Shown piece by piece: positions 32,104 through 33,327 of a stretch of DNA of 64,000 bases. Every line of letters begins with the position of its first letter. Within the stretch, counting starts at the first letter, position 1. The position numbers and the translations under genes are program-made. Origin of the DNA: a phage; the sequence record PZ445440.1. One strand, 5' to 3'. Below the pieces are notes generated by a model. That model did not search any database and was not told the DNA's origin. It saw only the letters and a list, made by a program, of their open reading frames with translations.

Positions 32104-32475
32104 TTATTTGATTTTTGTCCACTTAGCTGAATCAATAACACCTTTTGCTTTAATCTTCTCGATTAATGACTCTGCGCGATTTCTGGCATTTTCGTACCAT
32201 ACAACATCTTCAGAGTAACCAGTTTCTTCATCTTCGTAAGTTTTAGAACGAATACAGCCATAAACTGTAGAATTCAGACGGTAAATTTCACCGGTGAAAA
32301 AGTTTTCGATTTCGATATAATAACAAAAATCGTCTGAAGGGCCATCAGGAGTTGTACAATAAACCACATCACCTTGAACTGAACGAACCATCCACTGTAA
32401 CTCGTTAACAACTTGAGATTTATATCCATCATGGTCACGGCATTTAATTGTAGCATTTAAATTGATAATGTTCAT
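32104..32475 (-). CDS. Hypothetical protein, 123 aa
   Basis: GGAGAATAAA RBS; early promoter 32517-32545. Confidence 0.5.
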   Translation of the reverse strand: MNIINLNATIKCRDHDGYKSQVVNELQWMVRSVQGDVVYCTTPDGPSDDFCYYIEIENFFTGEIYRLNSTVYGCIRSKTYEDEETGYSEDVVWYENARNRAESLIEKIKAKGVIDSAKWTKIK

Positions 32476-32516: not shown

Positions 32517-32545
32517 ATAGTAACACATCCTACAGGAGAGTAAAC
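32517..32545 (-). promoter_or_regulatory. T4-type early promoter
   Basis: reverse complement GTTTACTCTCCTGTAGGATGTGTTACTAT. Confidence 0.55.
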
Positions 32546-32580
32546 ATCTTTTTAAACTTTTTCTGCCCTAAACGCACAAA

Positions 32581-32598
32581 AGGGAGACCGAAGTCTCC
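32581..32598 (-). terminator. Hairpin GGGAGACUUCGGUCUCCC (RNA from - strand), identical to the gene 23 terminator
   Basis: exact 18-mer repeated at 9856 and 47584. Confidence 0.6.
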
Positions 32599-32604
32599 CT
32601 AAAA

Positions 32605-32784
32605 TTATGCAACAACCTTTCCAAAACGAGAAGCATCATCTCGAAGAACTGCACGTGCTCTGCGCATGATCTTCTCAATGGTTTGATTAATACGAGAGTT
32701 CGACCCACGCTTGTATCCAGCGCGTTTAGAGGTACCATCAACTTTCTTTTCAACTGCTTTCTTTGCTTTAGCTTGTTTTGCCAT
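32605..32784 (-). CDS. Hypothetical small basic protein, 59 aa
   Basis: hand-translated MAKQAKAKKAVEKKVDGTSKRAGYKRGSNSRINQTIEKIMRRARAVLRDDASRFGKVVA; not in ORF track; no clear SD, so tentative. Confidence 0.35.
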   Translation of the reverse strand: MAKQAKAKKAVEKKVDGTSKRAGYKRGSNSRINQTIEKIMRRARAVLRDDASRFGKVVA

Positions 32785-33078
32785 TATAAATTCTCTTTAA
32801 ATGAAAATGCAGGACTTATTGACATTGCCTGCGCAAGCCCTCAAGGGGAACATAGGTTTTGGATATTTAACGACAGGATAACCATAAACCCGTCATCATA
32901 CCAACCACGACTTAGACAGATAACCTTTTTCTGACGCGTGATAGTACAAAATACATTCAAGAGGTACACCGTAAAACTGCCGGGGCCTTAAAACTATAAT
33001 GATTCGCAAATCATTAATCAGACAGTTCGACGGCTCCTCGATTTTCTAGCCGCACTAAGGTAGCGAATCACCTAAAAC

Positions 33079-33327
33079 TTATTTAAGGGTAATAACAAAA
33101 TGACGTACTGCTTTACGAGCTGCAGAAGCCAAAGGCTTAGCATATTTCAGTTCATCTTTTGCTTCCAGTTCAGAAGCCAAAGCTGCCTGTACCGGGTTCA
33201 GATGTTTGAAATAACGCAGGATTTCCAGTGCTTCGGCTTCAACATCAATTGACGCGCCGTAGTTTTCGTGACCGTTATTCCATGCGTTTCGTTGCAGTTC
33301 AAGAGCGTGTTGTAATTGTTTAATCAT
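33079..33327 (-). CDS. rIII: rIII lysis-inhibition accessory protein
   Basis: 82 aa, near-identical to recalled T4 rIII (MIKQLQHALELQRNAWNNGHENYG...). Confidence 0.9.
   Translation of the reverse strand: MIKQLQHALELQRNAWNNGHENYGASIDVEAEALEILRYFKHLNPVQAALASELEAKDELKYAKPLASAARKAVRHFVITLK

What the first reader, a model, noticed from the sequence alone, without database searches (positions are those of the whole stretch)
32605..32784. Unannotated 59-aa Lys/Arg-rich ORF missed by the ORF track
A minus-strand ORF (MAKQAKAKKAVEKKVDGTSKRAGYKRGSNSRINQTIEKIMRRARAVLRDDASRFGKVVA) ends immediately before the 32581-32598 terminator hairpin. It is highly basic, suggesting nucleic-acid binding. The overlapping 61-aa track ORF in another frame looks less gene-like. 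No clear SD precedes the ATG, so the call is tentative.
Basis: seen in the sequence. Interest (0 to 1): 0.4.

Follow-up and report, generated by a model that had tools for sequence, protein, structure and literature searches.

The report
Ortholog of phage T4 gene 30.9
The 59-codon reading frame is a real, evolutionarily conserved gene, but it is already known: it is the counterpart of phage T4 gene 30.9, a small, very basic early protein found in about a thousand T4-like phages whose function nobody has determined.

Summary
The ORF at 32605..32784 (minus strand, 59 aa) exists as described. Codon-level conservation and codon usage show it is the coding frame. The overlapping 61-aa ORF is an off-frame artefact.

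It is not unannotated. The window is 100% identical to Escherichia phage ChristianSchoenbein (Bas46, Mosigvirus), where this ORF is CDS bas46_0043. It is about 93% identical to T4 gp30.9 (NP_049823.1) and matches PHROG_1427 (E = 1e-30, unknown function). It sits at the syntenic position: gp31, rIII, spacer, 30.9, terminator, early promoter, 30.8. The first-stage track probably missed it only because it is one residue under a 60-aa cut-off.

Published T4 data class the 30.9 transcript as early. The protein was not detected by tryptic MS, which fits peptides of 7 aa or less. Knock-down gave no fitness defect.

The protein has net charge +13 and pI 11.4. It consists of a Lys/Ala-rich tail, a near-invariant SKRAGYKRxSNxR[IV][ND] motif and a confident Arg-rich amphipathic helix. 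No known fold or family matches.

My best guess for function is a dispensable early accessory factor that binds nucleic acid, at about 0.4 probability. This is inferred, not shown. Verdict: real gene, already known, low interest.

The parts
32605..32784 (-). CDS, 59 aa: orthologue of T4 gene 30.9 (bas46_0043; PHROG_1427). Layout: Lys/Ala-rich N-tail (1-15), conserved SKRAGYKRGSNSRIN motif (19-33), amphipathic Arg-rich helix (30-54).
   Evidence: ORF. Annotated CDS in MZ501056.1. About 93% identity to T4 gp30.9. PHROG_1427 E = 1e-30. pN/pS 0.45 with no stops in 11 orthologues. Gene-like codon usage. AF2 helix 30-54 with pLDDT 86-91.
32581..32600 (-). Intrinsic terminator hairpin AGGGAGAC-UUCG-GUCUCCCU, followed by UUUGUG. 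It ends the transcription unit that carries 30.9.
   Evidence: dG -14.1 kcal/mol, z = -3.74. A terminator is annotated at the same place in phage G53. A hairpin is present at this position in all nine orthologous loci read, with different but complementary stems: GGACUCC/GGAGUCC in T4 and GGGAACC/GGUUCCC in phiR1-RT.
32793..32798 (-). Weak Shine-Dalgarno-like AAAGAG, 8 nt upstream of the ATG.
   Evidence: Read from the sequence. Other genera have GGAAGA at the equivalent position. No conserved RNA structure was found around it.
32797..32799 (-). In-frame TAA five codons upstream of the ATG. It excludes the N-terminally extended '11.1 kDa / 97 aa' form once proposed for T4.
   Evidence: Read from the sequence. 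The extended T4 form is P0005. The extension is not conserved across genera.
32785..33078 (-). 294-nt spacer between rIII and 30.9, a 5' leader or intercistronic region. It is variable in length among genera (148-368 nt).
   Evidence: Spacer lengths. The whole spacer folds no better than shuffles, z = -0.21. There are no Rfam matches of note.
32941..32969 (-). Candidate T4-early-type promoter inside the spacer: GTGTAC-N17-TACTAT. It mirrors the GTTTAC-N17-TACTAT element in front of the next gene and lies partly in a segment of about 50 nt that is absent from T4. Inferred only.
   Evidence: Read from the sequence and compared with T4 and with the downstream promoters. It is below the threshold of the consensus scan.
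33079..33327 (-). rIII (lysis-inhibition accessory protein), the upstream neighbour. Context only.
   Evidence: Annotation of MZ501056.1 and T4.
32517..32545 (-). Early-type promoter GTTTAC-N17-TACTAT for the downstream gene (30.8 orthologue, 32104..32475). It shows that a new transcription unit starts after the 30.9 terminator.
   Evidence: Read from the sequence. The same arrangement is seen in most of the orthologous loci read, with GTTTAC or GTGTAC followed by a TA-rich -10 element.
32568..32753 (-). Overlapping 61-aa TTG-start ORF in the +1 frame. Not a gene.
   Evidence: Codon score -0.38, typical of an off-frame, and stops in 7 of 11 orthologues. pN/pS 1.1. No family hits. It runs through the terminator hairpin.

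Best explanation
Identity (shown, about 0.95). The ORF is a real protein-coding gene and the Mosigvirus orthologue of phage T4 gene 30.9. It is the last cistron of a transcription unit that runs through gene 31 and rIII and stops at a UUCG-loop intrinsic terminator directly after its stop codon. A new early promoter then drives 30.8.

Mechanism (inferred, about 0.4). gp30.9 is a dispensable early accessory protein that binds nucleic acid, meaning RNA, the ribosome or DNA. Three elements would work together. The first is a flexible Lys/Ala-rich N-terminal tail. The second is the near-invariant motif SKRAGYKRxSNxR[IV][ND], whose single invariant Tyr flanked by Lys/Arg would suit base stacking plus phosphate contacts. 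The third is a 25-residue amphipathic helix with an Ile/Met/Val/Leu stripe, for self-association or docking, and an Arg-rich opposite face.

Shown: coding status, orthology, synteny, terminator, charge, predicted helix, amphipathicity. Taken from the literature on T4: early transcript, no fitness effect on knock-down. Inferred: translation in this phage, the binding partner, the biological role.
For: The window is 100% identical to MZ501056.1, and the ORF is annotated there as bas46_0043.

T4 30.9 lies at the syntenic position and its translation is about 93% identical.

The ORF matches PHROG_1427 at E = 1e-30.

tblastn finds it in 1,007 phage records.

Synteny of gp31, rIII, spacer, 30.9 and terminator holds in Tequatro-, Mosig-, Jiaoda-, Dhaka-, Gelderland-, Karam-, Moon- and Tegunavirus and in a Serratia phage.

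There is purifying selection only in this frame, and its codon usage is gene-like.

The terminator has dG -14.1 kcal/mol and z = -3.7, with compensatory stem changes across genera.

The protein has pI 11.35 and net charge +13. Helix hydrophobic moment is 1.57 against 0.62 +/- 0.32 for shuffles.

AF2 predicts helix 30-54 at pLDDT 86-91.

The invariant motif is kept even in the most distant homologues found among 1.8 billion representatives.

The T4 30.9 transcript is classed 'early' (PMC9697503 Table S2).

CRISPRi-ART knock-down of T4 30.9 is 'Not Fit', score 0.04, p = 0.26 (PMC11879866 supplement).
Against: For identity there is essentially nothing against.

For translation, the T4 protein was not detected by proteomics (Class_P = NA), and the SD is weak. 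The proteomics gap is expected, because every tryptic peptide is 7 aa or shorter.

For the nucleic-acid-binding mechanism, there is no detectable homology to any nucleic-acid-binding family in Pfam, NCBIfam or PDB sequences. There is also no informative fold match. High positive charge alone is weak evidence, and a basic amphipathic helix could equally dock on an acidic protein or on a membrane.
Confidence: 0.85

Rival explanations
1. gp30.9 is a protein-protein effector. The invariant linear motif and amphipathic helix would dock on a conserved host protein, for host take-over or to counter a defence system, rather than on nucleic acid.
For: It is an early, dispensable, small gene in a region full of accessory genes, which is typical of T4 host-modulating proteins. 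A short invariant motif in a predicted disordered stretch looks like a linear interaction motif. There is a weak local similarity of the helix to SlmA residues 122-146, E = 0.14.
Against: No partner is indicated by any search. The SlmA match is not significant and covers one helix only. The extreme net charge of +13 and the Lys/Ala tail are more typical of polyanion binders.
Confidence: 0.3
2. gp30.9 is a peripheral membrane or lysis-timing accessory factor functionally linked to its neighbour rIII. It would act through its cationic amphipathic helix on the inner face of the membrane or on the holin complex.
For: It lies immediately downstream of rIII in the same transcription unit in nine of the loci examined. 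The helix is strongly amphipathic and cationic.
Against: Homologues persist without an annotated rIII between gp31 and the gene in Pseudomonas phage PspYZU05, and apparently also in OP380603.1, where only Pfam labels were available. The hydrophobic face is narrow. The transcript is classed early, not late. From my own knowledge of the T4 literature, no r-type locus maps here.
Confidence: 0.1
3. The ORF is not translated. The conservation would reflect an RNA or DNA element, or the real gene would be the overlapping 61-aa frame or the 97-aa extended form.
For: The SD is weak. The protein was not seen in T4 proteomics. An old UniProt entry (P17310, 97 aa) proposes a longer product.
Against: The substitution pattern is codon-periodic, with variable columns 29/27/46 at positions 1/2/3. 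pN/pS is 0.45 in this frame only, and the ORF is open in 11 of 11 orthologues. The alternative frame has stops in 7 of 11 orthologues and off-frame codon usage. The 97-aa extension is closed by an in-frame TAA in this window and is not conserved. There is no Rfam match and no unusual folding.
Confidence: 0.03

Closest known systems
Bacteriophage T4 gp30.9 (NP_049823.1; UniProt P17310; PHROG_1427), 'conserved hypothetical protein'
   Same: About 93% identical overall and 97% in the core. Same length (58 vs 59 aa). Same position after rIII and before 30.8. Same UUCG-loop terminator directly after the stop codon.
   Different: One extra residue (Asp16) and a C-terminus of VVA instead of QKA. The upstream spacer is about 50 nt longer and may carry its own early-type promoter. 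The in-frame upstream extension possible in T4 is closed by a stop codon here.
Basic-region plus zipper-like helix DNA binders (bZIP-type architecture). Analogy only, from general knowledge.
   Same: A basic segment directly precedes an amphipathic helix with a roughly heptad-spaced hydrophobic stripe.
   Different: There is no bZIP signature and no Pfam hit. The helix is only about 25 residues long. Dimerisation and DNA binding are untested.
Small, highly basic ribosome-associated proteins (bacterial bS21, bL20 N-terminal extension, phage-encoded ribosome binders). Analogy only, from general knowledge.
   Same: Similar size, extreme pI, and a mostly extended or helical shape with little globular fold.
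SlmA (TetR-family nucleoid occlusion factor), helix at residues 122-146
   Same: Local similarity between RINQLFERIEAQLRQVLRE in SlmA and RINQTIEKIMRRARAVLRD here.
   Different: E = 0.14, one helix only. There is no HTH and no TetR fold. This is most likely chance.

Membership tests
T4 gp30.9 family (PHROG_1427) | Significant sequence match to the family profile and to T4 gp30.9 | tested here: met
   PHROG_1427 E = 1e-30 over residues 1-57. About 93% identity to T4 gp30.9.
T4 gp30.9 family (PHROG_1427) | Conserved motif [SG]KRAGYKRxSNxR[IV][ND] followed by a basic helix containing RARxxL | tested here: met
   S19 K20 R21 A22 Y24 K25 R26 S28 N29 R42 A43 R44 V46 G55 are invariant in 24 sequences. 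The motif is kept in the distant homologues.
T4 gp30.9 family (PHROG_1427) | Syntenic position: downstream of gene 31 and rIII, upstream of 30.8/30.7, in the cd-to-DNA-ligase region of a T4-like genome | tested here: met
   Distant members lie next to gp31, cd or DNA ligase.
T4 gp30.9 family (PHROG_1427) | Intrinsic terminator immediately after the stop codon | tested here: met
   annotated in G53.
T4 gp30.9 family (PHROG_1427) | Early transcription and dispensability, as reported for T4 | not testable with these tools
   Only T4 data exist: transcript 'early' and protein not detected, and knock-down 'Not Fit'. No data for Bas46.
bZIP-type basic-region / zipper DNA binders | Basic-region signature and a profile match | tested here: not met
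   No Pfam match at E <= 1 other than an irrelevant Tp47 hit. No structural match.
Ribosomal proteins / ribosome-associated small basic proteins | Profile match to a ribosomal protein family | tested here: not met
SlmA / TetR family | N-terminal HTH plus the TetR C-terminal domain | tested here: not met
   Only a 25-residue local match, E = 0.14. The protein is 59 aa with a single confident helix.

The most novel reading that the evidence does not exclude
gp30.9 would be the founding member of an uncharacterised class of T4-like-phage early effectors. It would be a 6.5-kDa polycationic protein whose invariant GYKRxSNxR motif and Arg-rich helix bind a conserved host polyanion, such as the ribosome or rRNA, tRNA, or the nucleoid, to tune host or phage gene expression early in infection. 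Any phenotype would appear only in particular hosts or conditions.
Probability: 0.3. Interest if true: 0.45.

Novelty: already known. Interest (0 to 1): 0.12.

Why it matters
As a gene call it adds nothing new. The ORF is already annotated in this phage, in T4 and in related genomes.

Its residual value is as one of many conserved T4 'hypothetical' early genes. It is kept in about 1,000 sequenced T4-like phages across many genera, with an invariant motif and under purifying selection, yet it has no known function and no lab-condition fitness effect. That pattern suggests a conditional role, specific to a host or a defence system, that could be tested cheaply.

It also shows that a 60-aa ORF cut-off loses real phage genes, and that tryptic proteomics cannot see proteins like this one.

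Tried and rejected
1. Pfam, NCBIfam and PDB-sequence searches gave no significant family. The hits were Tp47 at E = 0.18, YbaK at E = 0.036 and far below its cut-off, and a SlmA helix at E = 0.14. I treat all three as chance.

3. An exhaustive profile search of 1.8 billion representatives found only 19 hits. All are small phage proteins with the same motif, plus one spurious 617-aa repeat protein. No link to a characterised family emerged.

4. I tested whether the 294-nt spacer is a structured RNA. It folds no better than shuffles (z = -0.21), and Rfam gives only sub-threshold noise over the terminator.

5. I tested for a hairpin sequestering the SD, which seemed visible by eye in several genera. 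RNAalifold predicts no consensus pairs, so I dropped the idea.

6. I checked the longer 97-aa '11.1 kDa' form. It is rejected because of an in-frame stop here and the lack of conservation.

7. I checked whether the 61-aa overlapping ORF is the gene. It is rejected.

8. Literature searches for gp30.9, gene 30.9, P17310 and T4 ribosome profiling found no functional study. One paper, Driukas & Nivinskas 2003 in Biologija on in vivo expression of rIII and 30.9, is cited in PMC9697503's neighbour PMC9409239 but is not in the library.

Full report
**Observation.** ATG is at 32784..32782 and TAA at 32607..32605. Four bases after the stop lies the hairpin AGGGAGAC-UUCG-GUCUCCCU (32600..32581), followed by UUUGUG. 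It has dG -14.1 kcal/mol and z = -3.74 against dinucleotide shuffles. The generic terminator scan did not flag it, probably because the T-run is short. Phage G53 annotates a terminator at the homologous place. The protein has 18 Lys+Arg against 5 Asp+Glu, with pI 11.35. The ribosome-binding site is weak: AAAGAG, 8 nt upstream of the ATG.

**Where the window comes from, and whether the ORF is unannotated.** A 1-kb query around the ORF is 100% identical to Escherichia phage ChristianSchoenbein (Bas46, MZ501056.1; Straboviridae, Tevenvirinae, Mosigvirus). In that record the ORF is an annotated CDS, bas46_0043 / QXV76887.1, 'hypothetical protein'. In T4 (NC_000866) the syntenic gene is 30.9 (NP_049823.1, 130364..130540), lying between rIII and 30.8. 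Its product, MAKQAKAKKAVEKKVGDSKRAGYKRGSNSRINQTVEKIMRRARAVLRDDASRFGKQKA, is about 93% identical to the window protein. The protein matches PHROG_1427 ('unknown function') at E = 1e-30. tblastn finds it in 1,007 phage records, and in nearly all of the 50 sampled rows an annotated feature, usually a hypothetical protein, lies under the match. So the 'unannotated' part of the finding is wrong.

**Is it really coding, and in which frame?** I took the orthologues from 11 phages of nine genera: T4, ime09, Bas46, G53, KPN6, Serratia 4S, UGJNEcP3, S16, KaAlpha, CF1 and phiR1-RT.
- In the annotated frame there are no stops, pN/pS is 0.45 summed over all pairs, and pairwise omega is 0.18-0.55.
- Third codon positions vary most, with 29/27/46 variable columns at positions 1/2/3.
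- The five other frames have 6-87 stops and pN/pS of 0.64-1.45.
- Codon usage scored against 36 long ORFs of the window gives +0.43 log2-odds per codon for the 59-aa frame. True-gene chunks score 0.365 +/- 0.147.
- The overlapping 61-aa frame scores -0.38, against -0.326 +/- 0.134 for off-frames. That frame is interrupted in 7 of 11 orthologues, and it also runs through the terminator hairpin.
- The old 97-aa '11.1 kDa' version of T4 30.9 (UniProt P17310; P0005) is an over-extension. Upstream sequences are not conserved at the protein level, and in this window an in-frame TAA sits five codons before the ATG.

**Genomic anatomy.** The order gp31, rIII, spacer, 30.9, hairpin, next gene is kept in Tequatro-, Mosig-, Jiaoda-, Dhaka-, Gelderland-, Karam-, Moon- and Tegunavirus and in a Serratia phage. 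The hairpin after the stop is present in all nine loci whose downstream sequence I read. Its stem sequences differ but stay complementary: GGGAGAC/GUCUCCC here, GGACUCC/GGAGUCC in T4 and GGGAACC/GGUUCCC in phiR1-RT. That supports a functional terminator. Downstream of it, most of these loci show a T4-early-type promoter (GTTTAC or GTGTAC, about 17 nt, then a TA-rich -10 element) for the next gene. In this window it is at 32545..32517. 30.9 is therefore the last cistron of its transcription unit. The rIII-30.9 spacer is long (294 nt here, 148-368 nt elsewhere) but shows no unusual folding (z = -0.21), and Rfam gives no meaningful match.

**What is known from T4.** In the time-resolved T4 omics study (PMC9697503, Table S2) the 30.9 transcript is classed 'early' and the protein is 'NA', meaning not detected. 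The latter is expected, since all tryptic peptides are 7 residues or shorter. In the genome-wide CRISPRi-ART screen (PMC11879866, supplement) knock-down of T4 30.9 is 'Not Fit', with score 0.04 and p = 0.26. Knock-down of neighbouring gene 31 is strongly 'Fit'. I found no functional study in the library. A 2003 paper on in vivo expression of rIII and 30.9 (Driukas & Nivinskas, Biologija) is cited in PMC9409239 but is not held.

**The protein.** Alignment of 24 family members shows S19 K20 R21 A22 Y24 K25 R26 S28 N29 R42 A43 R44 V46 G55 as invariant. An exhaustive profile search of 1.8 billion cluster representatives finds only 19 hits. Apart from one spurious repeat protein and a few fragments or chimeric calls, these are proteins of about 55-97 aa with the same plan: a Lys/Ala-rich N-terminus, [SG]KRAGYKRxSNxR[IV][ND], and a basic helix. 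Three of the distant ones were looked up. Two lie in T4-like phage contexts next to gp31, cd or DNA ligase, and the third is on a short, uninformative 6.4-kb contig. The Pseudomonas phage PspYZU05 homologue also lies next to gp31 and cd.

Conservation is moderate and mosaic. There are two helix subtypes, and identity to Bas46 is sometimes higher and sometimes lower than for rIII.

**Most likely mechanism.** Shown here: a real gene, orthologous to T4 30.9, that is the terminal cistron of a unit ending at an intrinsic terminator. Taken from T4 literature: early transcript, dispensable in the lab. Inferred, at about 0.4: a small polycationic accessory protein that binds nucleic acid (RNA or ribosome, or DNA) through its Lys/Ala tail, the invariant Tyr-containing basic motif and the Arg-rich face of the helix. 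The hydrophobic stripe would serve self-association or docking.

The rivals are:
- A protein-protein effector against a host factor or defence system (about 0.3).
- A membrane or lysis-timing accessory linked to rIII (about 0.1). This is weakened by homologues in phages where no rIII is annotated between gp31 and the gene.
- A non-coding or alternative-frame explanation (about 0.03), effectively excluded.

**Verdict.** But this is the already annotated T4 gene 30.9 orthologue, a conserved hypothetical early gene. Novelty: already known. Interest: low. Its only open question is its unknown function.

Noticed in passing
window 32997..33016 (minus strand): There is a perfect 8-bp inverted repeat TAATGATT-TGCG-AATCATTA about 60 nt downstream of the rIII stop, followed by TAGTTTTAAG. 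It is identical in T4 and appears in both the MFE and the centroid fold of the spacer. It could be a weak rIII terminator, an RNA processing site or a protein-binding palindrome. A GGAG (RegB-type motif) lies just upstream, at about 33037..33034.
   Followed up: partly
window 32941..32969 (minus strand): GTGTAC-N17-TACTAT inside the rIII-30.9 spacer closely mirrors the early-type promoter in front of the next gene (GTTTAC-N17-TACTAT at 32545..32517). It lies partly in a segment of about 50 nt that T4 lacks. The Mosigvirus 30.9 gene may therefore have its own early promoter. The consensus scan did not flag it.
   Followed up: partly
window 32896..33009 (minus strand): A 37-aa TTG-start ORF in the spacer is annotated as a CDS in phage G53 (G53_00216) but not in Bas46 or T4. 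It is probably a spurious call. I did not test it.
   Followed up: no
T4 locus L004 3365..3700 (minus strand); protein P0005: UniProt P17310, 'Uncharacterized 11.1 kDa protein in Gp30-rIII intergenic region' (97 aa), is an N-terminally over-extended version of T4 gp30.9. The label '11.1 kDa protein' has propagated into several phage annotations (ime09, GiZh, mogra, moskry).
   Followed up: yes
proteins P0017, P0036, P0051: These are database oddities. The 68-aa Klebsiella phage PMBT63 homologue is named '1,4-alpha-glucan branching enzyme' in UniRef. P0036 is a chimera of a P-type ATPase fragment and gp30.9 on a 570-bp contig. P0051 is a frameshifted gp30.9 filed under Shigella flexneri.
   Followed up: no
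loci L007 (UGJNEcP3) vs window: Evolution here is mosaic. rIII of the Dhakavirus UGJNEcP3 is 92.7% identical to Bas46 rIII, but the adjacent gp30.9 is only about 72% identical. The S16, KaAlpha and CF1 phages carry a second helix subtype (…RINPLADQLASRARKVLAHDAAFGNPRKKA). This suggests recombination between rIII and 30.9.
   Followed up: partly
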